Source of the DNA: Shigella phage S2_02
Length of the DNA: 50,597 nucleotides
Reading direction: 5' to 3' (one strand)
Sequence record: OQ223306
Positions within the stretch are counted from its first letter, which is position 1. Each line of letters begins with the position of its first letter. Below, piece after piece: positions 32,830-50,597 of the stretch. A model generated the notes under the pieces. It did not search any database and was not told the DNA's origin. It was given only the letters and a program-made list of their open reading frames with translations. The translations under genes were made by a program, and so were the position numbers.

Positions 32830-32875
32830 CAACTCGGGCGGCTTCGGTCGCCCATAAATTTTAGGAGAGAAAATC

Positions 32876-35102: not shown

Positions 35103-35121
35103 AGTATAAACTCCTTAAGTA

Positions 35122-35174: not shown

Positions 35175-35182
35175 TGGGCAAT

Positions 35183-35204
35183 AAAAAACCGCCCGAAGGC
35201 GGTT
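35183..35204 (-). terminator. Rho-independent terminator after primase gene (minus strand)
   Basis: AACCGCC-cgaa-GGCGGTT preceded on plus strand by A6 (U-run on minus transcript). Confidence 0.6.
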
Positions 35205-36138: not shown

Positions 36139-36150
36139 TTCCAGATCTCC

Positions 36151-36217
36151 AAAATAAAAAACGCGTAGAAGGATGTTAACCCGCTACGCGTCGTTTGTTT
36201 TAACTAAAAATGCTATT
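36151..36217 (-). promoter_or_regulatory. Minus-strand module: box + 18 bp + TAACAT overlapping hairpin/T-run terminator, upstream of primase
   Basis: Box (revcomp AATAGCATTTTTAGTTAAAAC) 36197-36217 contains stop of upstream gene; -10-like at 36173-36178; hairpin ACGCGTAG/CTACGCGT 36161-36191 then U-run. Confidence 0.45.
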
Positions 36218-36652: not shown

Positions 36653-36663
36653 CTTAATTCTCC

Positions 36664-36732
36664 TGTAGCACTTTTTGCTAAAAACGTTTACTGTATGCCG
36701 TGTATTATATCGTAAACGATACAACGATTCAA
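36664..36732. promoter_or_regulatory. Overlapping divergent promoters: box + 18 bp + TATTAT (plus, helicase) and TTGAAT-17-TATAAT (minus, HTH gene)
   Basis: Box 36664-36684; plus -10 at 36703-36708; minus -35 at 36727-36732 and -10 at 36704-36709; box lies in 5' UTR of the minus transcript. Confidence 0.45.
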
Positions 36733-36746
36733 AGGATTAAATAGCC

Positions 36747-38765: not shown

Positions 38766-39241
38766 TTGAATGGTCAAAATACCTTAAGTACAACTACGGT
38801 AATCTTTACTGGCTCGTCACTAGAAATAATAGAGTTCAAGCTGGAACGCTTGCTGGAACTATAAGTGATGAGGGTTACGTGAAAGTCATGATGCGCAAGA
38901 AGGCGTATCATGCTCATAGAATAATATGGGAGATGCACTACGGAAAAATACCCGAAGGGATGGAAGTAGACCATATAAATCACGACAGGACTGACAACAG
39001 AATAGAAAACCTTCGTCTTGTCACTAAGCAAGTTAACATGAAAAATAAATCATCATATTCAAATAACAAATCTGGCGTTACTGGAGTAAGCTGGCACTCA
39101 AAGAAAAAGAAATGGGTAGCTCAGATACAAAGCAACAAGAGGAAAAAGATGTTATATGAAGGGGATAGCTTTGATGATGCAGTGAAGGCGAGAAAGTCAG
39201 CAGAGATAGAGCTTGATTTTCATAAAAATCACGGGGTGTAA
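38762..39241 (+). CDS. HNH endonuclease with AP2-like domain (159 aa)
   Basis: ORF track; HRIIWEMHYGKIPEGMEVDHINHDRTDNRIENL HNH core; paralog of 9130 and 49475 genes. Confidence 0.8.
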   Translation: MIEWSKYLKYNYGNLYWLVTRNNRVQAGTLAGTISDEGYVKVMMRKKAYHAHRIIWEMHYGKIPEGMEVDHINHDRTDNRIENLRLVTKQVNMKNKSSYSNNKSGVTGVSWHSKKKKWVAQIQSNKRKKMLYEGDSFDDAVKARKSAEIELDFHKNHGV

Positions 39242-39242
39242 A

Positions 39243-39662
39243 ATGGCTGTACTAGATAAGGGTGATTATTTAGAATATTATGAACGAGATCCCAGCGATA
39301 CTCGAAAGGAGGTTGCTCATCAGATTGATAGCTTCCAGTGGCTAAAGCACAATCATCCGGAATTGCTTGCTTGGCATAGCGTTAATGAAAATAAGAAGAC
39401 AAAAGTTACCGCGATGATTGACCAGCAGTCAGGATTACTTAAGGGCGTATCAGACTTCGTTATCCTGATTGGTGTAAACTCACGTTACCCGTTCGCAGCT
39501 ATCGAACTCAAACGGGTTAATAAGTCCGGCAAAGGAAAAGCGTCACCAGTCAGCGATAAGCAAATTGAGTTTCTCAAAAAGGTTCGTGAACGCGGTGGAT
39601 TCTCTGCCGTTGCATACGGATTTGAGCAATTCAAGCTGGCAATATGCGATTTAACTAAATAG
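39243..39662 (+). CDS. putative VRR-NUC / PD-(D/E)XK nuclease (139 aa)
   Basis: ORF-track frame 39213..39662; ATG 39243 follows upstream stop; GVSDFVIL ... AIELKRVN resembles D...E.K nuclease motif. Confidence 0.5.
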   Translation: MAVLDKGDYLEYYERDPSDTRKEVAHQIDSFQWLKHNHPELLAWHSVNENKKTKVTAMIDQQSGLLKGVSDFVILIGVNSRYPFAAIELKRVNKSGKGKASPVSDKQIEFLKKVRERGGFSAVAYGFEQFKLAICDLTK

Positions 39663-39702
39663 CACTTTTTGCCAAACACGCCGGAATGGAATCTGGCATT
39701 AT
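39658..39702 (+). promoter_or_regulatory. Early-type promoter module upstream of dam (box + 18 bp + CATTAT)
   Basis: Box AATAGCACTTTTTGCCAAACA 39658-39678 includes upstream stop TAG; weak -10-like at 39697-39702. Confidence 0.4.
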
Positions 39703-39729
39703 TACCTCACCAAAACGAGAGGAATAAAA

Positions 39730-40443
39730 ATGAAAGACTTTAATGATATCTAAACCATAGACTTTGCAGATACTGGGTGCTCATTCACTCGTGAAGCAAT
39801 AGCATCAGGCGGTTATTATCAGGCATTGAAAACGCCAACCTGCAAAGAGATTTCAGGCCGTCGATACAAGGGAACCAATACACCTGACGCCGTTCGTGAT
39901 TTATGGTCAACTCCACGCGAGGTTATTGCATACCTTGAGGGGCGTTATGGGAAATATGATCTCGACGCTGCTGCAAGCGAGGAAAATAAAGTTTGCGAGA
40001 AGTTTTACTCCCAGGAAACAAACTGCTTAAAGCGTTGGTGGGGAAAGAATAAGCACGTTTGGTTAAATCCTCCTTATAGCCGACCTGATATATTCGTCAA
40101 GAAAGCGATTGAGCAAATGGAGCACAACAACCAGATCGATATGCTTTTACCTGCTGATAATTCTACAGCTTGGTTTACTGAGGCGCGACAGCACGCGGCT
40201 GAGATTATCTGGATTGAAGCGGATTTGACTGAGGATATCGACGGGAACGAGTACGCACGATCAGGTCGACTGGCGTTCATATCCGGTGAAACCGGAAAGG
40301 CCGTAGATGGTAATAACAAAGGTTCGGTAATTTTTATCATGCGCGAACTTAAAGAGGGTGAGACACAGCAAACTCACTATATCCCAATCACAAGCATTTG
40401 CCCTTCGGTGAAAAACAAGCGAGCAAAAGTGAGGAAAGTATAA
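39730..40443 (+). pseudogene. dam: dam-like gene in its full-length frame, interrupted by in-frame TAA at 39751-39753
   Basis: ATG 39730 with SD GAGAGGAA is in frame with the methyltransferase ORF but separated by TAA after 7 codons; could be nonsense mutation, sequencing error or recoding. Confidence 0.4.
39826..40443 (+). CDS. dam: DNA N6-adenine methyltransferase (phage Dam family) (205 aa from TTG start)
   Basis: ORF track; catalytic NPPYS motif and DLDAAAS region; only TTG start available downstream of the in-frame stop. Confidence 0.6.
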   Translation: MKTPTCKEISGRRYKGTNTPDAVRDLWSTPREVIAYLEGRYGKYDLDAAASEENKVCEKFYSQETNCLKRWWGKNKHVWLNPPYSRPDIFVKKAIEQMEHNNQIDMLLPADNSTAWFTEARQHAAEIIWIEADLTEDIDGNEYARSGRLAFISGETGKAVDGNNKGSVIFIMRELKEGETQQTHYIPITSICPSVKNKRAKVRKV

Positions 40444-40691
40444 TGAACGAGAAAATGACTCCGGTTAAGTTAACTGATCAAGGTTTATGGCTACTTTATC
40501 GAGCTACATGCTGCGAAATTATGGAGCAAAACGGATTGACTCAGGATGTTATTGGTTGCGATCTGTGGGAGTTCACTAGTTCTCTTGATATGTCTTTTGA
40601 TGAGATAAAAAATGAATACATTGAGAATTGGCCCTCAATCATCCAAAAAGACGTAGAAGAACTTTCTTCTGAGATAATTACGCAGCACTAA
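40443..40691 (+). CDS. hypothetical protein (82 aa)
   Basis: ORF-track frame 40398..40691; ATG 40443 overlaps dam stop (TAATG) with SD GAGGAAAG. Confidence 0.5.
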   Translation: MNEKMTPVKLTDQGLWLLYRATCCEIMEQNGLTQDVIGCDLWEFTSSLDMSFDEIKNEYIENWPSIIQKDVEELSSEIITQH

Positions 40692-40725
40692 TTGCTAAAA
40701 CTACCCGGCGAAAGTCGGGTATAGT
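40681..40725 (+). promoter_or_regulatory. Early-type promoter module: box CGCAGCACTAATTGCTAAAAC + 18 bp + TATAGT
   Basis: TATAGT 40720-40725 after hairpin ACCCG/CGGGT; CATCGA follows; box contains upstream stop TAA. Confidence 0.5.
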
Positions 40726-40757
40726 TATTTCATCGAAACGAAATGAGGAATCAGAGG

Positions 40758-40967
40758 ATGGCACGCATTAACGCAAACTTTTTCAATATCGCTCAACAGT
40801 CAGCAAAAATGGCTGTTCATATCACTGACAAGAAAGGCGGCAACTTCGATTGGGATATTGCTATGAACTTCCTTAAAATGTCTTATTACCGTTGCTCGGT
40901 TGAAGAAGTCGAAGGCCTCATCTCTGACGTGGAGAAATTAACTAATGATGATAAAAAAACAAGGTAA
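40758..40967 (+). CDS. hypothetical protein (69 aa)
   Basis: ORF-track frame 40743..40967; ATG 40758 has SD AATCAGAGG and lies downstream of predicted start. Confidence 0.5.
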   Translation: MARINANFFNIAQQSAKMAVHITDKKGGNFDWDIAMNFLKMSYYRCSVEEVEGLISDVEKLTNDDKKTR

Positions 40968-41217
40968 ACGAGAGGTTTGGGAGCACGCGAAGGAATGCGG
41001 AATCTCAGAAGATATAGCACTAATAGCGAAATATTTCGATATAAAGGATGTTAGCATTATCTCAAATGGCAAGATTTCATTTATGGAAGATATGCCGAGA
41101 AAAATGCATAGAGTTCCAGCAACTCCATCACTTGAGTTTTATCGTGAAGAAGGAAAGAGAATTGAGCGAGAACGAAAAAACGCAAAGAACAACAAGACTT
41201 CCAGGCTTAAATATTAA
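40945..41217 (+). CDS. hypothetical protein (90 aa), overlaps next ORF
   Basis: ORF track; SD GGAGA; overlaps 41048..41449 by 170 nt in another frame. Confidence 0.35.
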   Translation: MMIKKQGKREVWEHAKECGISEDIALIAKYFDIKDVSIISNGKISFMEDMPRKMHRVPATPSLEFYREEGKRIERERKNAKNNKTSRLKY

Positions 41218-41449
41218 CGAAGAAGATTACCAGACTATATGGATCGGAAATAAGCAGGTTAAGCAAATCCCTTTCTCTAACTGGTTGCCACCTGACTTTG
41301 TTAATGTGCTTTGCACTATCGGTATTGAGCAGGAGTTGCATATAGGTTACTACTCACCAGGCCGAAACAGTATGATGCTTGAGGTTGACGGAAAACTGGT
41401 TGAGTTTAAATCTTCAGATCTAGGATTCTGGTTAAAGGCTGTGGCATGA
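41048..41449 (+). CDS. hypothetical protein (133 aa as drawn); true start unclear
   Basis: ORF track; region 41218-41449 is open only in this frame; no good start after 41217. Confidence 0.35.
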   Translation: MLALSQMARFHLWKICREKCIEFQQLHHLSFIVKKERELSENEKTQRTTRLPGLNINEEDYQTIWIGNKQVKQIPFSNWLPPDFVNVLCTIGIEQELHIGYYSPGRNSMMLEVDGKLVEFKSSDLGFWLKAVA

Positions 41450-41527
41450 AACTTTATTTTGCTGTAGTATTAACACCGCTAATTTCATTTTCAGTAATGT
41501 ATTTCATTATCATGTAAGGATTAAAAT

Positions 41528-42679
41528 ATGTCACAAGCTAAAATCACCACCGAGCAACTTATTGAAGAGCGCATGAGCGGCCTAACACTTCGCGAAATCG
41601 CGGAAAAATACGGTATGCACATTCGCACTGTTGAAGCGCGACATGCCAAGCTGGCAAAAGAAGGTCATTTTCACGGTAACGAGCATGTTGCTAAAAACGT
41701 GCCCGAGGGATTCATGGTAAAAGGCACGTCGACGATGATTCGCGGCGATGGGACCGAGGTAGTGCGCTGGGTAAAAACCGATCAGGACCGTGAGAAGATT
41801 GCGGCAATGATGGAAGCAGCGCGTATTGCATTCTGTGAAGACCTGCCGAGAGCGAAGCCAACCGAGCTACTAACCTCGCAAGGGCTTACGACAGCGATGG
41901 GTAAGCTGGCACTCTATCCGGTATTCGATCTTCATATTGGCGCGCTTGCTCACAAGCATGAATGCGGAGAGAACTACTCTACCGACGTAGCTGAAAAAGT
42001 GCTTGGCGACTTCTTCAATTACGCGATCGATATTGCCCCGAACGCAGAGAAAGCTGTTCTGTTAATCGGCGGTGACTTCCTTCACTCGGACGGTCTTGAT
42101 GCTGTTACCCCGGCAAGCGGTCACGTTCTGGATCAGGATTCACGATATGCAAAATTGGTGCATGTGGCTATTCGATCGGTGCGTCGCGCTATCGACAAAA
42201 TGCTACTGAAGCACAAAGAAGTCGAAGTCCAGGTTATCGAAGGGAACCACGACCAGGCCGGGATGATTTGGCTACGCGCTGCAATGGCTGCATACTATGA
42301 AGACGAGCCGCGAGTATTCGTTGACGTCAGTCCTATGATTCTGCATAAGACTCGCTGGGGAAATACCTTACTGGGATACACTCACGGTCACACGATGAAA
42401 AAGGCAGACACGCGACTTGCAGCGATGGCGGCAGACTTCCGCGCAGACTTTGGAGAAAGCAAATACGTGTATACTCACAGTGGGCACTGGCATCATCAGA
42501 CAATCACTGAACACTCACTCGGTATTGATGAAGTTCACGGTCAGCTTGGGGCGAAAGACGCATATGCGGCGCGCGGCGGGTGGCGCTCATATCGCCAGGC
42601 GGCGGTAATCATTTACGATAAGCAGTTTGGTGAAATCGGTCGATTCATCTATCGTCCAGAAATGACAGGATCGCACTAA
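41528..42679 (+). CDS. calcineurin-like metallophosphoesterase with N-terminal HTH-like domain (383 aa)
   Basis: ORF track; motifs DLHIG, GGDFLHSDG, GNHD, GHTM, HSGHWHH; N-terminal LTLREIAEKYGMHIRTV HTH-like segment. Confidence 0.65.
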   Translation: MSQAKITTEQLIEERMSGLTLREIAEKYGMHIRTVEARHAKLAKEGHFHGNEHVAKNVPEGFMVKGTSTMIRGDGTEVVRWVKTDQDREKIAAMMEAARIAFCEDLPRAKPTELLTSQGLTTAMGKLALYPVFDLHIGALAHKHECGENYSTDVAEKVLGDFFNYAIDIAPNAEKAVLLIGGDFLHSDGLDAVTPASGHVLDQDSRYAKLVHVAIRSVRRAIDKMLLKHKEVEVQVIEGNHDQAGMIWLRAAMAAYYEDEPRVFVDVSPMILHKTRWGNTLLGYTHGHTMKKADTRLAAMAADFRADFGESKYVYTHSGHWHHQTITEHSLGIDEVHGQLGAKDAYAARGGWRSYRQAAVIIYDKQFGEIGRFIYRPEMTGSH

Positions 42680-42713
42680 TTACTAAAAATACCCGAAGGG
42701 ATTCGGGTATAGT
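42669..42713 (+). promoter_or_regulatory. Early-type promoter module: degenerate box + 18 bp + TATAGT
   Basis: Box GATCGCACTAATTACTAAAAA contains upstream stop; TATAGT 42708-42713 after hairpin ACCCGAA/TTCGGGT. Confidence 0.45.
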
Positions 42714-42742
42714 AACCACATCGAAAACAAAGAGGATATATC

Positions 42743-42919
42743 ATGAAGCGAGTTAAGTGCATCCGAAATGACTCCAAAACACTTCCATTCCGCGTAAATC
42801 AGATCTATAGTGTTGGTTATGATTTCGGTGGTGGATTATTTGAGATTTACGACGGGCGAGATTCAGCAATCCAATCTCCCCTGAATGGTCATTATCTGGA
42901 ATTTATTGAGATAGATTAA
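42743..42919 (+). CDS. hypothetical small protein (58 aa)
   Basis: ATG with SD AAAGAGGA downstream of module 42669-42713; below ORF-track cutoff; followed by terminator. Confidence 0.45.
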   Translation: MKRVKCIRNDSKTLPFRVNQIYSVGYDFGGGLFEIYDGRDSAIQSPLNGHYLEFIEID

Positions 42920-42940
42920 CAATATCATTCATCACCTTAC

Positions 42941-42971
42941 GGGCTGGCATGATTTACATGCTGGCCTTTTT
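42941..42971 (+). terminator. Rho-independent terminator upstream of lysis cassette
   Basis: 10-bp stem GGCTGGCATG/CATGCTGGCC (two G-T pairs) followed by T5. Confidence 0.55.
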
Positions 42972-43037
42972 GCGTTGTATCGAGTAAATTTGAAGGTTAA
43001 AATCGACTCACTTGTTCAAAAAATATATGGTGAGATT

Positions 43038-43253
43038 ATGAAAGAATTTTTAACAGCGGCTACGTCCAGCACGGGCGGTGCTTCATTGGTGGGGGCGGCG
43101 ACCGGGCAGCTTTATATTGCTGGCGCTACATTCATTTGCTTTCTTCTTTTTGGTGTATGGGGCGCGTACTGGAAGTATCGCGATAGCAAGGCAATCCATG
43201 AGGCGCTGAACGATGGAGATCTCAATAAGGCACTTAAGATTAGGGGGCGGTAA
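43038..43253 (+). CDS. putative holin (71 aa)
   Basis: ORF-track frame 42975..43253; ATG 43038 has SD GGTGAG; hydrophobic core and charged C-terminus; directly upstream of endolysin. Confidence 0.55.
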
Positions 43254-43741
43254 TGGGATTAAAAAATAACGTTATAGGCGCATCGATCGGGGCAGCTTTG
43301 ACGTTGACACCAACGCTACTGGAGCGAATCGAAGGGATAGAATACGAAGTGTATTACGATATAGCCGGAGTCCCTACAGTATGCAGCGGAATAACCGGGA
43401 CGGACGTCATACCTGGAAAGAAATACACTAAGCGAGAGTGCGATGCGTTGCTGATAAAACATATCGGCGTCGCTCAGCGATACGTTGACAAAAAGGTTAA
43501 GGTTGACATTCCGGTAACGATGCGAGCCTCACTCTACAGCTTCACATTCAACGTTGGTACTGGCGCGTTCGGATCTTCTACAATGCTTAAGCTAATAAAT
43601 CAGAGTAAGCACAAGGAAGCGTGCAATCAGTTATGGCGATGGGTATACTACTACAACCCAAAAACCAAAAAGCGCGAAGTGTCTAGAGGACTCAAGAACC
43701 GACGCGCTGAAGAATACGCGTATTGCGTTAAGGAATTATGA
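43253..43741 (+). CDS. endolysin (T4-lysozyme-like) (162 aa)
   Basis: ORF track; N-terminal catalytic pattern E...D...T in [26 protein letters not shown]. Confidence 0.8.
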
Positions 43742-44142
43742 TGAGACTTAAGAAAACGTGCATTGCGATTGCAGTGGCTGTTGGTGTTATTTCTCTATCC
43801 GGTTGCTCGACAGCATCTGCCCTGAGCGGTTTAATCGGATCTAAACCGGAAGTTACAGCACAAATCGGAGAGGAGAATACAAAGCAATTAGCAGGAGTAA
43901 CCGCAAAATCCGAAGATAAGCGAGATGTTAAAGTTGAGAAGTCCAATGTAGGAAAGATTGACTCTTCCTTGAAGAAGTCAATTGAAGTGTCAACCATTAA
44001 GGCCAACACAGTTAACGCTGAAAGCATCACAGTAACAAAACCGGAAAACTGGTACGACGCTATCGTTGGCTGGATTCTCGTTTTTATTGGTCTATTGCTG
44101 GTTTATTTTTCACTTCGTAAGGACGAAAAAAAGGAGGCTTAG
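43738..44142 (+). CDS. unimolecular spanin (134 aa)
   Basis: ORF track; N-terminal lipoprotein signal with lipobox LSGC plus C-terminal transmembrane helix in one polypeptide, as in T1-type u-spanin. Confidence 0.7.
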
Positions 44143-44153
44143 CCTCCTTTGTT
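44125..44153. terminator. Bidirectional Rho-independent terminator
   Basis: AAGGAGGC-tta-GCCTCCTT with A-run upstream and T-rich downstream; between convergent gene ends. Confidence 0.6.
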
Positions 44154-44355
44154 ATTTGTACCTTTTGACATGGAGAAGCAACTCCACATCCTGATCGCAA
44201 AGATTATGCTCGCTGTCATTGTTGGCCCTCATTGAAGTAAGTAACAGGCTGAGTAACCCCTGTTCAAATTCTTCCTTTGTAAGCTGGAGTCTTGCGCACA
44301 ATTCGACGTTCCGATCTATCAATGTTTCTACGTTCGCCAAACAAATCCTCATCAC
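44152..44355 (-). CDS. hypothetical protein (67 aa), overlaps end of upstream gene
   Basis: ORF track; SD GGAGAG before ATGATG; overlaps 44264..44671 by 92 nt. Confidence 0.3.
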   Translation of the reverse strand: MMRICLANVETLIDRNVELCARLQLTKEEFEQGLLSLLLTSMRANNDSEHNLCDQDVELLLHVKRYK

Positions 44356-44671
44356 TCATCTCTCCAATATGCATCATTTCCCATGTATACCGATTGTTGT
44401 AACCATCAATACACATCAGCTTCATCATTACCGGGCGCTTAATCTTTCCCTTGCACCAGTAAACACCATCCTTGCGATCCAAGTAACCCTCAGTCACACA
44501 ACGAGCGCAAAACTCCTTAGATAGCGAGCTTGTAAATTCACGGTGAGTCATTCCAGCAGCCTTAGCAAATCGCTCACTTTCCTTGTGGGCGTATATAAAT
44601 TTCGCTATGTGCTGTCGGGTGTATTTGTCGTAACCTTCGCAGAACCTGAACAGATCTAAAAGAAGCAGCAT
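44264..44671 (-). CDS. hypothetical protein (135 aa)
   Basis: ORF track; Cys/His-containing, basic C-terminus. Confidence 0.45.
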   Translation of the reverse strand: MLLLLDLFRFCEGYDKYTRQHIAKFIYAHKESERFAKAAGMTHREFTSSLSKEFCARCVTEGYLDRKDGVYWCKGKIKRPVMMKLMCIDGYNNRYTWEMMHIGEMSDEDLFGERRNIDRSERRIVRKTPAYKGRI

Positions 44672-44675
44672 ATCA

Positions 44676-46244
44676 TTAACCCATCAGTCTAGGATTGATG
44701 AAAACAATATCATCAATGCGGCAAGTGTAGTTCATCTCTTCGAGCGTGATCAGCAGGCTATCGATTCGCTCAGATACTTTCTGTTGACCGCTGAACGGCG
44801 TAACGTTCCGGCACTTTGCAACAATGCTATGAATAGGTGCGCGGCCTTTGTTCTTCTTCGCGATCTCAGTGATAACATCAATCAGCTTACGAGATTCAGC
44901 CTCATCACCAGCATACCCGGCAGCGCTGGCAGACGACAGATAAGTCCTGGAAAGCTCATTGAAAATCATGATCGCTTCCTGCATTGTTTCAAGGTCAATC
45001 TCACGGTTGGCCCGGTTCGGTGATTCACCCTCCCAATTCTTGATCGTGTGGAGAACTGAAGCAATACGCAGGGCGTGCTTATCGAACTTACCGAGATGAC
45101 CGCGTAGCATTGAGTGAGAGTATTTTCCCCCTGCGGCGAAATCCGGTTCCATCGCCTGACGCGCAAGGTTTAATTCACGCATAGCATTACGGCTCACAGA
45201 TAGAACAACGTTATCCTCTTTCATGATGTTGTGGACGAGTCGATAGTATTTGCTAACCAATCCGCGATCGACTTCCTTATACAGTGCATCACCATTTTCA
45301 TCGCAAAGAATACGAGTACCTAAAAGCGGTTCCTCGCGAACCAATAGGAAACGCTCAGATACACCGATACCGCGCTGGCCTGCGTCCATGATACCCTTGA
45401 TTGTTTCATCCTGCGCAATGACGCAGATCGAACCGACCGGGCAAAGAGATAAGTTGTTGTCCTGATTTGAACGCGCGACCTCCATATGGTTTTTATCCCA
45501 CGCCTTAAGGATAAGCTCGCTGTTTGATTTCTTATCAGAACCGCCATAGGTCAGTCCCAGCAATGTATTTATTGCTGTTGCCTCATCAGAGATTACGGAG
45601 AAGTGACCTTGAACAGCCGCCACCTTCGCAAGACCTTCAGGTGTAGGATCTGATACCGCGAAAACAATATCAGCCATCTTCTTGATCTTCTCTTCCAGTT
45701 TTTCTTTGTCCTCGTACAGAGCAGCCGTCGTGTTGCCTTTAGGATCGTTTTTTATTTCCTTCTCGACCTGACGTAGCTGACTGGTTAAACGGATACGTTC
45801 CTTTTTACGCTCTTCATTCAGTCGCTGAATCTCCGCACGCATAGGTGTAATCGCCGCTGAGTTAATCGCTGATTTACCTGTTGACGGTGGCTGGCTAATC
45901 ACCATATAAAGAGCGGTCGGTTGTTCTTCTCCGTGATATTGCACCCAAAACTTCCCGAGCATCGCGGCTGAGATGCACCCAATGAAATGAGCGTACGCAG
46001 ACGAAACAGGAAACTGTACAGACTCAGCCTTTGCCTTTGCATATTCGAATACCAGGTTATCGCCACCTAACGAAATCAGAGGGAACTTATCGTTTCCACT
46101 GTTGATATCGATCGGATCTTGCCAAAACGAAACTGAATCCCCATAGCTGTTTTCACGAATTGCGATCGCCACCGGATTAACTCCAGTGCTATTTGCGATC
46201 TCAATAATCTGTTGGTAATTCAGTTTTGGCTTAATATTAAACAT
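44676..46244 (-). CDS. putative P-loop ATPase, replication/recombination-associated (522 aa)
   Basis: ORF-track frame 44676..46307; ATG 46244 has SD AAGGAG; Walker-A-like PPSTGKSA. Confidence 0.6.
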   Translation of the reverse strand: MFNIKPKLNYQQIIEIANSTGVNPVAIAIRENSYGDSVSFWQDPIDINSGNDKFPLISLGGDNLVFEYAKAKAESVQFPVSSAYAHFIGCISAAMLGKFWVQYHGEEQPTALYMVISQPPSTGKSAINSAAITPMRAEIQRLNEERKKERIRLTSQLRQVEKEIKNDPKGNTTAALYEDKEKLEEKIKKMADIVFAVSDPTPEGLAKVAAVQGHFSVISDEATAINTLLGLTYGGSDKKSNSELILKAWDKNHMEVARSNQDNNLSLCPVGSICVIAQDETIKGIMDAGQRGIGVSERFLLVREEPLLGTRILCDENGDALYKEVDRGLVSKYYRLVHNIMKEDNVVLSVSRNAMRELNLARQAMEPDFAAGGKYSHSMLRGHLGKFDKHALRIASVLHTIKNWEGESPNRANREIDLETMQEAIMIFNELSRTYLSSASAAGYAGDEAESRKLIDVITEIAKKNKGRAPIHSIVAKCRNVTPFSGQQKVSERIDSLLITLEEMNYTCRIDDIVFINPRLMG

Positions 46245-46273
46245 CACAATAAACTCCTTAGTTGACGGTGTGA

Positions 46274-46318
46274 ATGATACACCGCCAATGGTACACGCGT
46301 TTTGCAAAAAGTGCTATT
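46274..46318 (-). promoter_or_regulatory. Leftward early promoter module (box + 18 bp + TATCAT on minus strand)
   Basis: Box (revcomp AATAGCACTTTTTGCAAAACG) 46298-46318; minus-strand -10 at 46274-46279. Confidence 0.45.
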
Positions 46319-46320
46319 GG

Positions 46321-46737
46321 TTATAAGTATTTGGCCTCAAAGGTTGTGCCGTCTGCAATGATGAATCCGACATCCGCACGAAATAAGGTCCAGCGGCAAC
46401 CGTCCTCATCAAAGATGTAACCAGCCACAGCACCGAGAGCGCGACCGCTTTCTACCTGGTAACGCTTTCCAACCTTGAATGATTTTTTCATCGGGTTGCG
46501 ATGGTCAAGTCCGGTGCACTTGAGCGTCTTTGTTTTCAACTCAGTGAACTTCGCGAAGAAGATTTCATCAGATCCGTGAATATGTAATTCATCATGCTTT
46601 TCAAGTTTTAAATACTTCCCGCATTTTAACTTGATTTCACGAGTGCCATCATATCGCTCACGACCTTTGTATAGGTTGTTTACTTCAAATCCTGTGATTT
46701 TATCTGCGTGAGTACATTTCAGTTTGATGGATTTCAT
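46321..46737 (-). CDS. hypothetical protein (138 aa)
   Basis: ORF track; SD AATCAGGAG. Confidence 0.55.
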   Translation of the reverse strand: MKSIKLKCTHADKITGFEVNNLYKGRERYDGTREIKLKCGKYLKLEKHDELHIHGSDEIFFAKFTELKTKTLKCTGLDHRNPMKKSFKVGKRYQVESGRALGAVAGYIFDEDGCRWTLFRADVGFIIADGTTFEAKYL

Positions 46738-46773
46738 TTCGTTAACTCCTGATTGGTTATCTTGAATAAGGTC

Positions 46774-46818
46774 ACTTTATCAAATGACCTTACGGCAACA
46801 TTAACAAATCGTGCTATT
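46774..46818 (-). promoter_or_regulatory. Leftward early promoter module (box + 18 bp + TAAAGT)
   Basis: Box 46798-46818; -10 inside hairpin AAGGTCA/TGACCTT (46768-46792), which differs from the 3791-3817 hairpin by compensatory changes. Confidence 0.5.
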
Positions 46819-47027
46819 TACCAGGGAATATAATCGTCGTCGTCTTCATTAATATCATCACTATGTAATTCAAAGTTAGGATCGTATTCGCTTTCAGCAT
46901 CCATATCCATATCGCCAAGAGCCTCATCAAGTGTTATTTCTTTATATGCAACCTTGACGCACCATTCGGCACTAAGTCCAGCATCAAGCGCTGCGAAATA
47001 ACGGGTCCAAAAATTATCCTGCTCCAT
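46818..47027 (-). CDS. small highly acidic protein (69 aa)
   Basis: ORF track; Asp/Glu-rich (DMDMDAESEYDPNFELHSDDINEDDDDYIPW). Confidence 0.5.
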   Translation of the reverse strand: MEQDNFWTRYFAALDAGLSAEWCVKVAYKEITLDEALGDMDMDAESEYDPNFELHSDDINEDDDDYIPW

Positions 47028-47030
47028 TAA

Positions 47031-47255
47031 TTAACTCCATGAATTAATATAAATTGAGTTTGCTTCAAGCGTAGCACGAACATCGGCATCTGTTGCATTT
47101 ACTAAGCGCGAGCATGGCGTGCTTCCGATAACGTTATTACCGTTACGAGTCTTAGTTACCGTCATTGAAATAAAGCCGGAAGACTTATCCATTTTGATAA
47201 CTACACGGCCTTTCGCGTTCAGGTGCTTGATGATATTCTCAACTTTAATGCTCAT
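47031..47255 (-). CDS. hypothetical protein (74 aa)
   Basis: ORF track; SD AAGGAA. Confidence 0.5.
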   Translation of the reverse strand: MSIKVENIIKHLNAKGRVVIKMDKSSGFISMTVTKTRNGNNVIGSTPCSRLVNATDADVRATLEANSIYINSWS

Positions 47256-47287
47256 TTTTAATTCCTTTGTTTGTTTGGTGTGGGAGT

Positions 47288-47333
47288 AATATACCTTACT
47301 CCCTGCTGATTGTCTTTAGCTATTCGTGCTATC
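47288..47333 (-). promoter_or_regulatory. Leftward early promoter module (box + 19 bp + TATATT)
   Basis: Box 47313-47333; -10 within hairpin GGGAGTAA/TTACTCCC (47282-47303). Confidence 0.45.
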
Positions 47334-47475
47334 AGTACTCAGAAATTACTTTGCACTCTTTGATTGTGCCGCCTAGAACTACTTTCTGCATCATTGCTTT
47401 TTGGTGGCTATCGTAGACGCGAACATTTTTTACGCTGTTAAATTTGCCAGTATAGAAAGTGTGAATATAAATCAT
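47332..47475 (-). CDS. hypothetical small protein (47 aa)
   Basis: ATGA overlap with upstream gene stop; stop TGA adjoins box; below ORF-track cutoff. Confidence 0.3.
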   Translation of the reverse strand: MIYIHTFYTGKFNSVKNVRVYDSHQKAMMQKVVLGGTIKECKVISEY

Positions 47476-47858
47476 TTTTTACCGTCCCATGTTTGATATG
47501 CCGTAACCAGGTTAATGCTATGGTCGAACTCGTCAACGCTAAGCGATCCAATTCGAACAATCTCCTTGTTGTGCTTAATGTCAATCATCCGGCTGCATGG
47601 ATGACCTGGAACGTATTTAAATAGACGCTTGCTGTCGGCAATGTCTGCGTTAATTCCGTAGAATCGGCCTACTGCCGCCTTAACGCGCTCCATGATGTTT
47701 TTTTCGTGGATTGCTGCCGCGTTATTTAGTGCCGCAACCGTGCTTCCGTTAATCTTCGGTGACTTCGTTGTGATTTTGTAAGTGTGGTTCATTATTCCCC
47801 CTAACCAGTCAGGATAGCTTCCGCGCTTCATCAATGATAACAGGTTCGAGACGCTCAA
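47472..47858 (-). CDS. hypothetical protein (128 aa)
   Basis: ORF track. Confidence 0.55.
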   Translation of the reverse strand: MSVSNLLSLMKRGSYPDWLGGIMNHTYKITTKSPKINGSTVAALNNAAAIHEKNIMERVKAAVGRFYGINADIADSKRLFKYVPGHPCSRMIDIKHNKEIVRIGSLSVDEFDHSINLVTAYQTWDGKK

Positions 47859-48009
47859 GTCGAACGCGGAACGTGTTCATAAATCCCTCGTTATTCTTCA
47901 ATAACTCGAAGGCGTCCGTAGCTTCAATGGCGCTACTACCCATGTAAGCGATTACTTTTTTCTTAGTCTTGCGTGAGATCGCCACCACGCGGTAAATATT
48001 ATCACTCAT
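47809..48009 (-). CDS. hypothetical protein (66 aa)
   Basis: ORF-track frame 47809..48027; ATG 48009 preferred (SD AAGGAGG 7 nt upstream). Confidence 0.5.
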   Translation of the reverse strand: MSDNIYRVVAISRKTKKKVIAYMGSSAIEATDAFELLKNNEGFMNTFRVRLERLEPVIIDEARKLS

Positions 48010-48202
48010 ACAATGCCTCCTTAACACGATCCGCTACACATGAGTTAACGGTGATTGAATAGTTTGTCACGCCCCATAATGCAATATTGCCAAGCTCGGT
48101 ACGCATAGATGGATTGTTTAGCTGGATGATTGTCTCGCCAGTATCGTCATCGAAGAAACGAGACGCGCCAGAACGGTCCACCACGCGCGTTACGCGGTTC
48201 AC
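48002..48202 (-). CDS. hypothetical protein (66 aa)
   Basis: ORF track (GTG start); weak SD. Confidence 0.4.
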   Translation of the reverse strand: MNRVTRVVDRSGASRFFDDDTGETIIQLNNPSMRTELGNIALWGVTNYSITVNSCVADRVKEALYE

Positions 48203-48205
48203 GCA

Positions 48206-48373
48206 CTACATTACATCACTTACGCCGTAATAAGCGCTCAGAGCGGATCTCAAGGCCTTCTCTTGCTTGTTGTAAATATTGCGCGCGATGTTCTCGATCG
48301 CCACGCTTTCTTTCTCGTCAGTCTGGATTGCAGTGCTGGCTGAGAAGTCCAGATCTGTGAACTGATTAAACAT
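48206..48373 (-). CDS. hypothetical protein (55 aa)
   Basis: ORF-track frame 48206..48418; ATG 48373 (SD GAGGAAAG) is the first start downstream of predicted start of module 48405-48449. Confidence 0.45.
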   Translation of the reverse strand: MFNQFTDLDFSASTAIQTDEKESVAIENIARNIYNKQEKALRSALSAYYGVSDVM

Positions 48374-48404
48374 GATTCTTTCCTCGTTCTCTGTTGGTGG
48401 GATG

Positions 48405-48449
48405 ACTATACCAGCCATCCCGGATGCGCGTTTAGCAAAAAGTGCTATT
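48405..48449 (-). promoter_or_regulatory. Leftward early promoter module (box + 18 bp + TATAGT)
   Basis: Box 48429-48449; minus-strand TATAGT at 48405-48410; CATCC start-like motif. Confidence 0.5.
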
Positions 48450-48609
48450 CGATAACTTCCTTTGGAACGACCTTGATCTCATCAAAGAAGTTAGTCCTGT
48501 CATTCTCAGTGAGATTCTTGATCTCGTTAGCTTTGCTCTCGGTCGAGCATATCTCGATCAGTTCGTCACCTTCATAGTAGATGGTTCCAACCACGCAATA
48601 TACGATCAT
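48445..48609 (-). CDS. hypothetical small protein (54 aa)
   Basis: ATGA overlap with stop of 48606..48986; stop TAG inside box 48429-48449; below ORF-track cutoff. Confidence 0.35.
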   Translation of the reverse strand: MIVYCVVGTIYYEGDELIEICSTESKANEIKNLTENDRTNFFDEIKVVPKEVIE

Positions 48610-48986
48610 AATTTTTCCTCCAGCACTTCACGGATGCGGTTGATTGCATCCAACTTGTCGCAATCCCAACGAGTCGTTCCGTTATCCGGTCGCCCTTCAA
48701 ACGCGAGACTCACCTCTTCGAGAAGGTTGTCAATGATAGCCTCCTTCTCGTCGCCGTCCATCTTTCCGAACTCAACCGATCCGACGTAGCGATTGATATA
48801 AGCAATCATGCTTTTATGCTCTTCAATGGTAAAGATATCCGTGATACTGATCCCGGTATCGCGTTGAGTGATAATTACTCGATTGCTCGGGCGAATGATG
48901 CCGCCCACCAGGCGATTGCAAATCTCAACGGTAAAACCTTTCTCATTTGCGCGGTCAATTGCTGCCTGAAGTTTTGAATCTGTCAT
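48606..48986 (-). CDS. hypothetical protein (126 aa)
   Basis: ORF track; SD AATCAGGAGAA. Confidence 0.55.
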   Translation of the reverse strand: MTDSKLQAAIDRANEKGFTVEICNRLVGGIIRPSNRVIITQRDTGISITDIFTIEEHKSMIAYINRYVGSVEFGKMDGDEKEAIIDNLLEEVSLAFEGRPDNGTTRWDCDKLDAINRIREVLEEKL

Positions 48987-49016
48987 CTGGTGATTCTCCT
49001 GATTGGTTTATGTGTT

Positions 49017-49062
49017 CAATATACCCCGATTACCTTCGGGGCGTTTAGCAATTCGTGCTGTT
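49017..49062 (-). promoter_or_regulatory. Leftward box copy with hairpin; -10 weak
   Basis: Box (revcomp AACAGCACGAATTGCTAAACG) 49042-49062 with hairpin CCCCGA/TCGGGG; no good -10 at the expected spacing. Confidence 0.35.
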
Positions 49063-49396
49063 AATCAATATCGAACTCAGCGGCATACGCTTTCTTGAAG
49101 CCAGCTTCACGCATGGTACGCTTACTGATTTTTCGCGGGAACTTGTACTGGCTGTTAGGCTTAACCCACCAGAAGCAGGCAGTTTCGCGAACGATTTCAT
49201 ATTTACCATAGCGGGTGAAGGTGTCACGTTCAGCGTCCGGCTGGTTAACACAGGTCAGGAATTTAGCAGCTTTGTCTTCAGTTTTGATTTCTTCCCATAC
49301 GAAGGAATCCATACCGTTAACTTTGCAAGCTACCATGATGTACTCAACGCCGTTTTCGATTTTGATGATTTCGTTACCGCGATTTTCGTATTTCAT
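49061..49396 (-). CDS. hypothetical protein (111 aa)
   Basis: ORF track. Confidence 0.55.
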   Translation of the reverse strand: MKYENRGNEIIKIENGVEYIMVACKVNGMDSFVWEEIKTEDKAAKFLTCVNQPDAERDTFTRYGKYEIVRETACFWWVKPNSQYKFPRKISKRTMREAGFKKAYAAEFDID

Positions 49397-49434
49397 TTTC
49401 CTGCCCCTGATGTGTATCTCGTTTCGATGAAGTA

Positions 49435-49479
49435 ATTATGCCAAATCACACCGATCGAGTTTTAACAAAAAGTGCTATT
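49435..49479 (-). promoter_or_regulatory. Leftward early promoter module (box + 18 bp + CATAAT)
   Basis: Box 49459-49479 contains stop of HNH gene; minus-strand -10 at 49435-49440. Confidence 0.45.
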
Positions 49480-50002
49480 TGCCGTGGTTTTCATGGTATC
49501 CGTGTTCATATTCAGCGGCTTTCTTTGCGGAAATCGCATCATCAAAACTTGAGAAGCACCCTATGTAAATTCTCCTTCCTCGCTTTCCCCCTCCAATCCT
49601 TACAACCCATTTGCCATGTTTATTTTTATGCACACCTGGTATGCCACTTGTATTGTTTTTCTGTTTTGATGTGTTTCGCATATTTCCTTTGTGATCTTTT
49701 AGCTCAAAGTTTATTGCTCTGTTATCAGTCGTAATGTGATTTACGTGATCAACCTCCTTTCCTTCAGGTATAGTCCCATAGTGCATTTCATAGCATATTC
49801 TATGAACTTTTAGGTTATAACGTTTTCCGTTTATAGTAAGTGCGGTTTCTAAATATCTGCCACCACTACCCAAAGAGCCAACCTCATTACCAGCATTGCA
49901 AGCATTCCATTGTTTAACTCTTGATTTGTGGATATCTTTTCTTTCTTTCCAGAACAGCTTTCCAGTTTTCGGATTGTATGTAAAGTAATCATGCCAATTC
50001 AT
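49475..50002 (-). CDS. HNH endonuclease with AP2-like domain (175 aa)
   Basis: ORF track; HRICYEMHYGTIPEGKEVDHVNHITTDNR HNH core; paralog of 9130 and 38762 genes. Confidence 0.8.
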   Translation of the reverse strand: MNWHDYFTYNPKTGKLFWKERKDIHKSRVKQWNACNAGNEVGSLGSGGRYLETALTINGKRYNLKVHRICYEMHYGTIPEGKEVDHVNHITTDNRAINFELKDHKGNMRNTSKQKNNTSGIPGVHKNKHGKWVVRIGGGKRGRRIYIGCFSSFDDAISAKKAAEYEHGYHENHGK

Positions 50003-50114
50003 TCATCACCTCAAAACGGAAGATATCGCGCAAAGTTAAGTTCATGACCAGCAAGGCCGGAACCGTCAAATAGTGACCAGATTAATTTCACTTGTTGCAT
50101 TCTCCTGATTAACC

Positions 50115-50249
50115 TTATCGCTTACCCTGACCGTTGCAGGCCGGACACGTAATTCTCTGCATCATCCAGACTCCAGAGACTTCAGTGAATAACGGAACCA
50201 TAGTAAATCCACGACCAGCACACTGACTACAAATCTGTTTAACTCTCAT
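50115..50249 (-). CDS. small zinc-ribbon-like protein (44 aa)
   Basis: ATG with SD AGAGGAAG; two CxxC pairs (CSQC ... CPAC); below ORF-track cutoff. Confidence 0.4.
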   Translation of the reverse strand: MRVKQICSQCAGRGFTMVPLFTEVSGVWMMQRITCPACNGQGKR

Positions 50250-50283
50250 TTTTGCTTCCTCTTCTGATTGGTTGATGTGATGA

Positions 50284-50329
50284 ATCATACCCTGCCAACA
50301 TAGCTAAGTCGTTAGCAAAAAATGCTATT
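50284..50329 (-). promoter_or_regulatory. Leftward early promoter module (box + 19 bp + TATGAT), first of leftward early region
   Basis: Box (revcomp AATAGCATTTTTTGCTAACGA) 50309-50329; minus-strand -10 at 50284-50289; CATCA start-like motif. Confidence 0.45.
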
Positions 50330-50470
50330 CCAATAATTGCTCATTATTCCATCAATAGTGGAATATGTGGAATAATTTTGATTGTGATTGATTGCGAATG
50401 ATGAAACGTGATTATTGCATGGTGCGCAACAGTTGGTTGATTTGTTGCTGAGAATGCAATGATTGTGAGA
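50330..50470. repeat. Repeat-rich non-coding control region (TGGAAT/ATTCCA and GATTG repeats) ending in G8
   Basis: Short direct and inverted repeats read directly; continues across the assembly junction into 1-445. Confidence 0.5.
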
Positions 50471-50597
50471 GGGGGGGGAATTGGTGTTACCCAGTTCACC
50501 TGGTAGTCATCTCCATTTTTAGCAAAAAGTGCTATCCATTACGATTACGCTTGATTGTGTGTTAATCCATGTATATGATTTGCCTAAATCGCAATCG
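50471..50597. repeat. Terminal direct repeat copy 2 (identical to 1-127)
   Basis: Exact match to window start; repeat may continue beyond window end. Confidence 0.9.

What the first reader, a model, noticed from the sequence alone, without database searches (positions are those of the whole stretch)
50330..50470. Repeat-dense junction region between the two divergent early regions: candidate origin or pac-related region
The interval from 50330 across the junction to about 445 contains TGGAAT/ATTCCA repeats, GATTG repeats, a G8 run, a box copy lacking a -10 (46-66), AT-rich ATATAG-type repeats (150-240), a 3 x 9-bp tandem repeat (343-369) and the 12-bp palindrome (414-445). Similar AT-rich ATATATAG tracts occur in the other divergent region (30660-30730).
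Basis: seen in the sequence. Interest (0 to 1): 0.45.

Follow-up and report, generated by a model that had tools for sequence, protein, structure and literature searches.

The report
T1-type phage packaging start (pac) region
This is the non-coding control region of a T1-like coliphage where DNA packaging starts and from which the two early gene sets are read in opposite directions; the packaging role is already known from close relatives, and an origin of replication is not shown.

Summary
The repeats are real and non-random. The window is a circular assembly of a T1-like phage (Tunavirus). Bases 1-127 duplicate 50471-50597 exactly, which is an assembler overlap, so the true non-coding junction is about 703 bp (50250..50470 + 1..483).

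It has three parts:
- **Block A (about 50264..66):** 86-96% conserved in 14 Tunavirus genomes, against 57-63% in most flanking non-coding segments. T1's genome coordinate 1 aligns to 50414. The published pac cut of phage Chapo (68|69) aligns to window 13|14, 5 nt past the G-run. Phage SH2's record opens at window 14; three other records (IME167, Henu5_2, IME347) open at or near 33|34.
- **Block B (150-235):** a conserved AT tract.
- **Block C (67-149 and 236-483):** group-specific. It carries two rightward promoters and six copies of GATTAACA. Sister phage groups have different 8-mers at the same positions, and the adjacent gene diverges in parallel.

The small terminase (P22 gp3 type, 8553-9101) is at least 90% identical in 59 phage records, including sampled T1- and JMPW1-group members. 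This fits pac recognition in Block A, not Block C.

Verdict: the pac-related reading is supported by homology. The origin reading is untested and only architecturally plausible. The element is already known in kind.

The parts
50471..50597 (.). Assembler overlap: exact duplicate of window 1-127. The unique circle is 50470 bp.
   Evidence: One search shows an exact 127-nt terminal overlap. The same 127-bp artefact is described for Sfin-1 (PMC6714547).
50121..50249 (-). First leftward early gene: a 43-aa mini-protein with a DnaJ-type CXXCXGXG zinc-finger motif.
   Evidence: PF00684, 27.3 bits, below the 32.7 cutoff. LHE71 annotates a 126-nt CDS at the same place.
50283..50328 (-). Leftward early promoter. 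Box-L (TTAGCAAAAAATGCTAT, 50312-50328) lies about 23 nt upstream of the -10 TATGAT (50283-50288 on the + strand).
   Evidence: The box matches the published 21-nt Drexlerviridae intergenic repeat aaATAGCACnnnTTGnTAAAA (PMC11447400).
50326..50374 (.). Nested inverted repeats: TATTCCA, TATTCCA, then TGGAATA, TGGAATA.
   Evidence: 4 of 14 genome copies, P 1.5e-5. Mean pairwise identity 0.90 across 14 Tunavirus. Also present in Badaguanvirus IME347.
50379..50463 (+). Candidate pac recognition zone. It contains TGATTG repeats (50379-50394) and two GATTRTTGC units 29-30 bp apart (50410, 50439), each inside a TTGCN-N5-NGCAA dyad (50415-29, 50445-59), followed by GCAATGAT (50456-63). T1, JMPW1, JMPW2, Chapo and FCWL1 coordinate 1 aligns to 50414.
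   Evidence: The same units recur at the same spacing in T1 and IME347, and in Braunvirinae phage MSK just left of its PhageTerm start. That the terminase binds here is inferred, not shown.
1..8 (.). G8 run (same DNA as 50471-50478). Its length varies among relatives: G6, G7, G8 or GGGAGG.
   Evidence: Shfl1's record and this contig both open here, so it is probably a technical break point (inference). The length variation also argues against the mechanical ORF 50344-50499 being a gene.
13..14 (+). Position homologous to the mapped pac cut of phage Chapo (record 68|69, ATTTA|GTGTTACC). Packaging is expected to run rightward from here.
   Evidence: PMC7471380 and alignment A4. SH2's record starts exactly at the base aligned to window 14. 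Direction comes from T1's repeat_region 1..2800.
14..35 (.). Imperfect palindrome GTGTTACCCAGTTCACCTGGTA, flanked by the two record-opening positions 13|14 and 33|34.
   Evidence: identity 0.92. The single-strand fold is not significant (z -1.1). IME167 and Henu5_2 open at 33|34, and IME347 opens at about the homologous position.
49..65 (-). Box-R (TTAGCAAAAAGTGCTAT). It is oriented leftward, has no -10 or gene downstream, and lies in the most conserved segment of the junction.
   Evidence: identity 0.96 for 36-66. Its role is unknown.
81..109 (+). Rightward promoter candidate P_R1 (TTGATT-17-TATGAT), with iteron copy O1 (GTGTTAATC, 89-97) in its spacer.
   Evidence: A promoter is kept at the same place in the JMPW1 group (TTGTCA-17-TAGAAT), with that group's own 8-mer over it.
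150..235 (.). AT tract of ATATA/ATATAG repeats and a T8 run. It is nearly identical in the T1 and JMPW1 groups although its flanks differ.
   Evidence: identity 0.83 against about 0.62 in the flanks. A paralogous tract lies at 30660-30760. [quoted passage not shown]
260..269 (-). Iteron copy O2 (CGATTAACAT on the minus strand).
343..369 (+). Iteron copies O3-O5: CGATTAACA, CGATTAACA, CGATTAACC in tandem, 9-bp period.
   Evidence: At the same place the JMPW1 group has CTAGACAG/CTAGACAA and the phiL group has CGGTTGCAT/CGGTTGCAC/TGGTTACAA.
394..453 (+). Rightward promoter P_R2 (-35 TTGACG 394-399; extended -10 TGTAACACT 414-422). It is overlapped by the 12-bp inverted repeat 414-425 / 434-445, whose half-site GTAACAC resembles the iteron TTAACAC. 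Iteron copy O6 (TGTTAATC) lies at 446-453.
   Evidence: Read from the sequence. SA30RD, SA12KD and SA32RD annotate a promoter at the homologous place.
484..1059 (+). First rightward gene (T1 ST77 homologue, phrog_11083). It is the candidate binder of the iterons, and its N-terminal two-thirds is group-specific.
8553..9101 (+). Small terminase (TerS), P22 gp3 type. It is the protein expected to recognise pac, and it lies about 8.5 kb from the cut.
   Evidence: PF16677, 39.2 bits against a cutoff of 29.4; 59 phage records at 90% identity or more (T1 94.5%, phiD2-2 94.0%, Sfin-1 92.3%), IME347 67%, Rtp-like about 50%.
9674..11242 (+). Large terminase (TerL), the nuclease and motor expected to make the pac cut.
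   Evidence: Terminase_6C; phrog_38, E 8e-114.

Best explanation
[quoted passage not shown] The interval is the roughly 700-bp non-coding region between its two divergently transcribed early arms. I read it as three blocks.

**Block A (about 50264..50470 + 1..66): the packaging-initiation (pac) region.**
- Inferred mechanism: the P22-gp3-type small terminase binds the phased GATTRTTGC / GCAATGAT units at 50409-50463. The TGGAATA repeats may also be involved.
- The large terminase then cuts 20-50 bp to the right, at or near 13|14 and possibly 33|34.
- Packaging proceeds rightward by headfuls.
- This block also carries the leftward early promoter (box-L).

**Block B (150-235):** a conserved AT tract. 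It most likely serves promoter architecture or DNA bending or melting.

**Block C (67-149 and 236-483):** two rightward promoters plus six copies of a group-specific 8-mer and a related palindrome. I read these as operator sites for a group-specific DNA-binding protein, most likely the product of the adjacent gene (484-1059).

**Shown:** homology, conservation, motif statistics, and the positions of published ends.
**Inferred:** which motifs the terminase binds, and who binds the iterons.
For: **Identity**
- 88-97% nucleotide identity to T1, ULIM2 and Lg3 across the junction.
- TerS and TerL are present.

**Location of pac**
- T1's record starts at window 50414 and annotates its terminal redundancy as 1..2800.
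- Chapo's read-end-mapped pac cut (68|69) aligns to window 13|14.
- SH2's record opens at 14. IME167 and Henu5_2 open at 33|34, and IME347 (a different genus) opens at about the homologous position.
- In Braunvirinae phage MSK, the PhageTerm start (36,862) also lies in the intergenic region between the divergent arms. It sits about 50 bp right of the same GATTRTTGC / GCAATGAT units.

**Conservation**
- Block A is 86-96% identical among 14 genomes, against 57-63% in the neighbouring non-coding segments apart from the AT tract.
- TerS is at least 90% identical in 59 phage records, about as many as the 65 records that carry Block A, including T1 and two JMPW1-group phages. It is 67% in IME347, where Block A is 73% identical.

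**Block C**
- The 8-mers differ by group but occupy the same positions, both direct and inverted copies.
- They associate perfectly with the N-terminal type of the adjacent protein in 25 loci.
- They overlap both rightward promoters.
Against: - No reads of this phage were available, so the cut is placed by homology only.
- The Chapo mapping is a one-sentence statement in a genome announcement.
- Most other records do not say how their start was chosen. T1-aligned starts (JMPW1, JMPW2, Chapo, FCWL1) are copies of a convention, not independent data.
- How T1's position 1 was fixed could not be checked, because Roberts 2004 and Wietzorrek 2006 are not held.
- P22-type small terminases usually recognise a pac site inside or next to their own gene. 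Here it would be 8.5 kb away, and no P22-like pac sequence is present.
- Terminase binding to the named motifs is untested. The palindrome at the cut is not conserved in IME347.
- The association between iterons and the adjacent protein could reflect linkage alone.
Confidence: 0.8

Rival explanations
1. Origin of replication. The AT tract (150-235) would be a DNA-unwinding element flanked by iterons (89-97, 260-269, 343-369, 446-453). These would be bound by an initiator encoded next door (484-1059). The palindrome at 414-445, related to the iterons, would serve as an autoregulatory operator, as in iteron plasmids such as mini-F RepE.
For: - The layout resembles an iteron origin: direct plus inverted copies of one 8-mer around an AT tract, a palindrome sharing the iteron core (TAACAC) over the promoter of the adjacent gene, and group-specific co-variation.
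- The phage has its own primase and helicase but no recognised initiator, and no origin is known for the family.
Against: - There is no direct evidence.
- There is no DnaA or IHF site cluster.
- GC skew tracks transcription only.
- The repeats are 8-9 bp tandem units with no spacer, and they overlap promoters. That fits repressor operators at least as well.
- A similar AT tract sits in the second divergent promoter region, which points to a promoter-linked role.
Confidence: 0.2
2. The junction is purely a transcriptional control region. All the repeats would be promoter, operator and upstream elements for the divergent early promoters. Packaging would start elsewhere, for example within or near terS as in P22, Sf6 and SPP1.
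For: - The region demonstrably carries promoter-like elements on both strands and two copies of the genome-wide box.
- TerS is of the P22 gp3 family, whose members typically use a pac site in or beside their own gene.
Against: - The Chapo read-end mapping, the MSK PhageTerm start and the T1 terminal-redundancy annotation all place the packaging start in this intergenic region.
- Several records open within about 20 bp of each other here.
- No P22-like pac motif is enriched anywhere in the window.
- Box-R has no promoter or gene to serve, yet lies in the most conserved segment.
Confidence: 0.08
3. The apparent repeat density is an artefact of the assembly. The 127-bp terminal duplication and a homopolymer break would inflate the repeats.
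For: - Window 1-127 equals 50471-50597 exactly.
- The contig starts at the G-run, where Shfl1's record also opens.
Against: - All enrichment statistics were computed on the de-duplicated 50470-bp circle.
- The same elements are present, internal and uninterrupted, in dozens of independent genomes.
Confidence: 0.02

Closest known systems
pac region of coliphage T1 and of Tunavirus vB_EcoS_Chapo
   Same: - Homologous sequence: 87-92% identity over the core.
- Same position between the divergent early arms.
- T1's coordinate 1 and terminal redundancy start here.
- Chapo's mapped cut (68|69) aligns to window 13|14.
   Different: - This phage has G8 instead of G6, and several point changes: TGCAA to CGCAA in the first dyad, and a weaker palindrome at the cut.
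- The recognition sequence itself has not been defined in any of these phages, as far as the held literature shows.
P22 / Sf6-type pac sites recognised by gp3-family small terminases
   Same: - The TerS belongs to the same Pfam family (PF16677).
- Headful packaging from a unique site.
- The two candidate end positions lie 20 bp apart. From my own knowledge, P22 has a series of end sites spaced about 20 bp apart.
   Different: - P22's pac is a 22-bp asymmetric site inside gene 3. Here the site is about 8.5 kb from terS, in a non-coding region.
- No match to the P22 pac sequence is found.
- The candidate recognition elements here are phased short repeats.
Iteron-type plasmid origins with an autoregulated Rep (mini-F RepE, pSC101, P1)
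   Same: - Direct repeats, an inverted copy and an iteron-related palindrome over the promoter of the adjacent gene, next to an AT tract.
- Faint fold resemblance to RepE.
   Different: - Repeat units are 8-9 bp and abut each other, rather than about 19-22 bp units.
- There are no DnaA boxes.
- The structural match is not significant.
- No replication function is shown.
21-nt intergenic repeat of Drexlerviridae (aaATAGCACnnnTTGnTAAAA; German et al. 2024, PMC11447400)
   Same: Box-L and box-R match the consensus and belong to an 18-site family in this genome.
   Different: Box-R is not followed by a -10 or a gene, unlike the other copies. The function of the family is still unknown.

Membership tests
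pac site of a headful-packaging phage | The phage encodes a small and a large terminase of a headful type. | tested here: met
   TerS is PF16677 GP3_package at 39.2 bits, above the 29.4 cutoff. TerL is Terminase_6C / phrog_38.
pac site of a headful-packaging phage | A defined physical DNA end (the first cut of a packaging series) maps to the site. | not testable with these tools
   No reads or virion DNA of this phage were available. By homology, Chapo's cut 68|69 aligns to window 13|14. The MSK PhageTerm start lies in the equivalent intergenic region.
pac site of a headful-packaging phage | Terminal redundancy begins at the site, with a unidirectional packaging series. | tested here: inconclusive
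   The T1 RefSeq record annotates repeat_region 1..2800, starting at the base aligned to window 50414. How that was measured could not be read.
pac site of a headful-packaging phage | The site is conserved in step with the terminase that recognises it. | tested here: met
   Block A is 84-94% identical in 65 records, and 59 records carry TerS at 90% identity or more. In IME347 Block A is 73% and TerS 67% identical. Rtp-like TerS is about 50% identical, and only the short units are shared there. This pattern is also what plain phylogenetic distance would give.
pac site of a headful-packaging phage | The small terminase binds the site, and the site alone confers packaging or transduction. | not testable with these tools
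   This needs EMSA or footprinting and a plasmid transduction assay.
Iteron-type replication origin | Several copies of one short sequence are clustered in a non-coding region. | tested here: met
   GATTAACA: 5 exact copies plus 1 degenerate copy in 370 bp, out of 9 in the genome; P about 5e-9.
Iteron-type replication origin | An adjacent AT-rich unwinding element. | tested here: met
   The AT tract 150-235 lies between O1 and O2. Actual unwinding is not tested.
Iteron-type replication origin | An adjacent gene encodes an initiator of a known Rep fold. | tested here: inconclusive
Iteron-type replication origin | Host initiator or architectural sites (DnaA boxes, IHF sites). | tested here: not met
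   Two one-mismatch DnaA boxes against 1.3 expected by chance; no IHF site.
Iteron-type replication origin | Replication initiates here. | not testable with these tools
   This needs marker-frequency or nascent-strand mapping.
Drexlerviridae 21-nt intergenic repeat ('box') | Match to aaATAGCACnnnTTGnTAAAA. | tested here: met
   50312-50328 and 49-65 match the window-derived 17-nt box core TTAGCAAAAARTGCTAT with 0 mismatches. That core corresponds to the published consensus.
Drexlerviridae 21-nt intergenic repeat ('box') | Lies in the direction of transcription, about 76 nt upstream of a start codon. | tested here: met
   This result applies to box-L only, which lies 63 nt upstream of the ATG at 50249, with a -10 about 23 nt downstream. 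Box-R does not meet the feature: it has no -10 and no gene downstream.

The most novel reading that the evidence does not exclude
Right of the pac cut, Tunavirus genomes carry a swappable specificity module. It comprises six copies of an 8-mer, a related palindrome over the promoter, and the N-terminal two-thirds of the adjacent protein (T1 ST77 family, function unknown).

The module exists in at least three mutually exclusive versions: GATTAACA, CTAGACAA and CGGTTGCA. The protein would be a previously unrecognised sequence-specific DNA-binding protein.

It could be either of two things:
- the long-missing replication initiator and origin of T1-like phages, built like an iteron plasmid replicon; or
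- a heteroimmunity-like early repressor in a virulent phage.
Probability: 0.3. Interest if true: 0.55.

Novelty: already known. Interest (0 to 1): 0.3.

Why it matters
- **For annotation.** The contig should be trimmed by 127 bp. It can be opened at the pac cut (window 14) in line with T1-type convention. The mechanical ORFs inside 50289-483 should not be called genes.
- **For biology.** The pac location is not new, but the recognition sequence of T1-type terminases has never been defined. The comparison narrows it to an 85-bp stretch (50379-50463) containing phased GATTRTTGC / GCAATGAT units shared across two subfamilies. This is directly testable and relevant to T1-mediated transduction and to engineering of these phages.
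- **The group-specific iteron module.** Together with its adjacent gene, it gives a concrete candidate for an unknown early regulator or initiator in a classic but poorly understood phage family.

Tried and rejected
- **P22 pac sequence.** AAGATTTATCTG with up to 3 mismatches gave 54 matches against 64 expected, with no meaningful hit in the junction. The TLS authors' approach of guessing pac by P22 similarity does not help here.
- **GC skew as an origin indicator.** The cumulative minimum is at the junction, but skew simply follows gene orientation, so I did not use it as evidence.
- **Rfam.** No hit in the whole window at gathering thresholds, and none in 1-600 at E up to 1.
- **Single-strand hairpins.** Only the 414-445 palindrome (z -4.2) and the 50411-50463 inverted repeat (z -2.9) stand out. 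The cut-site palindrome and the AT tract do not. The cut-site stem is not maintained by compensatory changes.
- **DnaA and IHF sites.** At chance level or absent.
- **Terminator-like hairpin at 381-403 on the minus strand**. It is not conserved in T1 or LHE71, so I dropped it.
- **Key papers not held.** Roberts 2004 and Wietzorrek 2006 could not be read. What I say about classical T1 pac mapping beyond the database annotation rests on my own knowledge.
- **IMG/VR scan for more diverse relatives.** The iteron/protein association therefore could not be tested on recombinants.

Full report
**What the window is.**
- The two ends of the window are the same DNA. Bases 1-127 equal 50471-50597 exactly. 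This is a 127-bp assembler overlap of a circular contig, of the kind also described for the related phage Sfin-1 (PMC6714547). The unique genome is therefore 50470 bp.
- The junction is 88-97% identical to coliphage T1 and other Tunavirus genomes of the family Drexlerviridae.
- Genes run leftward from 50249 and rightward from 484. The real start codons were read from the sequence and agree with the annotation of relatives. This leaves about 703 bp of non-coding DNA: 50250..50470 plus 1..483.
- Mechanical ORFs inside it are not credible. For example, 50344-50499 contains a G-run whose length differs among relatives.

**Checking the observation.**
- Statistics were computed on the de-duplicated circle and are strong for several motifs:
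  - GATTAACA: 5 of its 9 genome copies lie in the 703 bp, against 0.06 expected.
  - TGGAATA: 4 of 14 copies.
  - TATATA: 9 of 24 copies.
- GATTG alone is only weakly enriched.
- The 'box' matches 18 distinct sites genome-wide (19 matches, one in the duplicated overlap), against 0.6 expected.
- The AT tract in the second divergent region (30660-30760) is similar beyond composition: alignment score 51 against 26 +/- 5.5 in block shuffles.
- The G-run and the 'box copy at 46-66' each exist once. Their apparent second copies near 50471-50536 are the overlap.

**Three blocks, not one element.** I aligned the junction from 14 Tunavirus genomes and measured pairwise identity by segment.
- **Block A**, from about 50264 through the junction to 66, is 86-96% identical in all 14. 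The exception is the 13-nt G-run segment, at 76%, where G-run length varies. The flanks are 57-63% identical.
- **Block B**, the AT tract 150-235, is 83% identical. It is nearly invariant between the T1 and JMPW1 groups.
- **Block C**, 67-149 and 236-483, is group-specific.

**Block A is the pac region.**
- T1's sequence record begins at the base aligned to window 50414. RefSeq annotates its terminal redundancy as 1..2800.
- The one read-end mapping I found for a Tunavirus is a genome announcement for phage Chapo. It places the pac cut between record positions 68 and 69, from identical ends in about 20% of reads (PMC7471380).
- In alignment A4 that is ATTTA|GTGTTACC, which corresponds to window 13|14. 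This is 5 nt to the right of the G-run.
- Phage SH2's record starts exactly at the base aligned to window 14.
- The IME167 and Henu5_2 records open 20 bp further on, at 33|34. The record of IME347, a different genus (Badaguanvirus), opens at about the homologous position.
- The two positions flank an imperfect palindrome (14-35).
- In the more distant Braunvirinae phage MSK, the published PhageTerm start (36,862; PMC8421802) also falls in the intergenic region between the divergent arms.
- The T1-aligned starts of JMPW1, JMPW2, Chapo and FCWL1 merely follow T1's convention, so I do not count them as independent.

**What the terminase may recognise (inferred).**
- The small terminase is at 8553-9101 and belongs to the P22 gp3 family (PF16677).
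- It is at least 90% identical in 59 phage records, including T1 (94.5%) and the JMPW1-group phages phiD2-2 (94.0%) and Sfin-1 (92.3%). It is 67% identical in IME347 and about 50% in Rtp-like phages.
- A terminase this conserved cannot be reading the group-specific Block C, which leaves Block A.
- Within Block A, the elements shared by T1, this phage, IME347 and MSK are two or three GATTRTTGC units about 30 bp apart, followed by GCAATGAT. In this window they lie at 50410, 50439 and 50456.
- Each unit sits in a TTGCN-N5-NGCAA dyad. The mapped or presumed ends lie 20-50 bp to their right.
- The TGGAATA inverted repeats are conserved in Tunavirinae but absent in MSK.
- None of this binding is tested.
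- No P22-like pac sequence is present. Unlike P22, the site is about 8.5 kb from terS.

**The boxes.**
- The box equals the published 21-nt Drexlerviridae intergenic repeat, whose function is unknown (PMC11447400).
- Box-L (50312-50328) sits about 23 nt upstream of a -10 (TATGAT) for the leftward arm, like the other copies.
- Box-R (49-65) points leftward and has no -10 or gene downstream. It nevertheless lies in the most conserved segment (0.96 identity for 36-66), 15-35 bp from the presumed cut positions. I cannot explain it.

**Block C is a group-specific operator- or iteron-like module.**
- In the T1 group, GATTAACA occurs at 89-97 (-), 260-269 (-), three times in tandem at 343-369 (+), and at 446-453 (-).
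- At the same positions the JMPW1 group has CTAGACAA.
- The phiL group has CGGTTGCA at the tandem-array position and at one upstream inverted position. Direct and inverted copies change together.
- The first copy lies in the spacer of a positionally conserved rightward promoter (81-109).
- The palindrome 414-445 overlaps the extended -10 of a second rightward promoter (-35 at 394-399). Its half-site GTAACAC resembles the iteron TTAACAC.
- The adjacent gene (484-1059, T1 ST77 family, phrog_11083) diverges in parallel: 61% identity to the JMPW1 type, 47% to IME347, and 22% to the phiL and MSK types. The C-terminal 50 residues can be identical.
- In 25 loci the protein type and the 8-mer type are perfectly associated. 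No recombinants were available, so linkage alone could explain this.
- An AlphaFold model (pLDDT 78) has no significant structural neighbour. The recurring weak hits are the iteron-binding initiator RepE and winged-helix proteins.
- I read these sites as operators for an autoregulated early protein. An iteron-type origin is the main alternative.

**Origin of replication.**
- Nothing here tests it.
- GC skew follows transcription, and DnaA and IHF sites are at chance level or absent.
- The literature I could search reports no origin for this family.
- The AT tract with flanking iterons has an origin-like layout. However, a paralogous AT tract in the other divergent promoter region points to a promoter-linked role.

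**Comparison and verdict.**
- The element is the homologue of the T1 and Chapo pac region and is already known in kind.
- New here, and testable:
  - the narrowing of the likely recognition zone to 50379-50463;
  - the 20-bp pair of end positions around a palindrome;
  - the specificity-swapped iteron module next to the ST77-family gene.
- Statements about classical T1 pac mapping (Ramsay and Ritchie; Roberts et al. 2004) beyond the database annotation rest on my own knowledge. Those papers could not be read.

Noticed in passing
window 1398, 2137, 2956, 3764, 5417, 6712, 46801, 48432, 49462 (box copies) and about 60 nt downstream of each: In most box copies the box ends about 22 nt upstream of an extended -10 (TGnTATAGT). 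That -10 sits inside a hairpin whose stem sequence differs from copy to copy but stays complementary, for example GGGATAAC..GTTATCCC, AAGGCCA..TGGCCTT and AAGGGCAT..ATGCCCTT. A 22-nt gap is too long for a normal -35, so the box may be an activator site.
   Followed up: partly
window 292-311: TCATGTTTATATATACAGTA matches the E. coli LexA box consensus at 17 of 20 positions, with CTGT changed to ATGT in one half. It is the only such site in the genome and is conserved in the T1 and JMPW1 groups.
   Followed up: partly
window 30540-30900: The second divergent intergenic region has an AT tract paralogous to 165-255. It is flanked by repeated GTGTAACAG / CTGTTACA and TGTCTAT motifs, an arrangement like Block B plus Block C of the junction.
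   Followed up: partly
window 50121-50249 (-): The first leftward gene encodes a 43-aa protein with two CXXCXGXG motifs of the DnaJ zinc-finger type (PF00684, 27.3 bits, below the cutoff).
   Followed up: partly
window 9130-9705: An HNH endonuclease gene (PF13392; phrog_99) lies between terS and terL and overlaps the start of terL.
   Followed up: no
window 50250..483: There is no GATC in the 703-bp intergenic region (3.4 expected), although the phage family methylates GATC and relatives carry two GATC where this phage has GATT.
   Followed up: no
window 484-1059 and alignment A1: The C-terminal tail of the ST77-family protein has two allelic forms, VVDVGKLADSELMTRDVNEIV and VPDVDDLEKGDVTVSTVRDLV. 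They assort independently of the N-terminal type, which implies a recombination point inside the gene.
   Followed up: no
L012 (Shigella phage vB_SsoS_008), about 1230-1320: This JMPW1-type junction carries an inserted fragment of the T1-type 5' UTR (TGTTAATCATGGTGTATATTGAAACTAAGGAGAAAGC). It also lacks part of Block A around the G-run.
   Followed up: no
window 1-8 / 50471-50478: The contig starts exactly at the G8 run, and Shfl1's record opens at the same place. Homopolymer length varies among relatives (G6-G8, GGGAGG), so this may be a technical break point rather than a biological end.
   Followed up: partly
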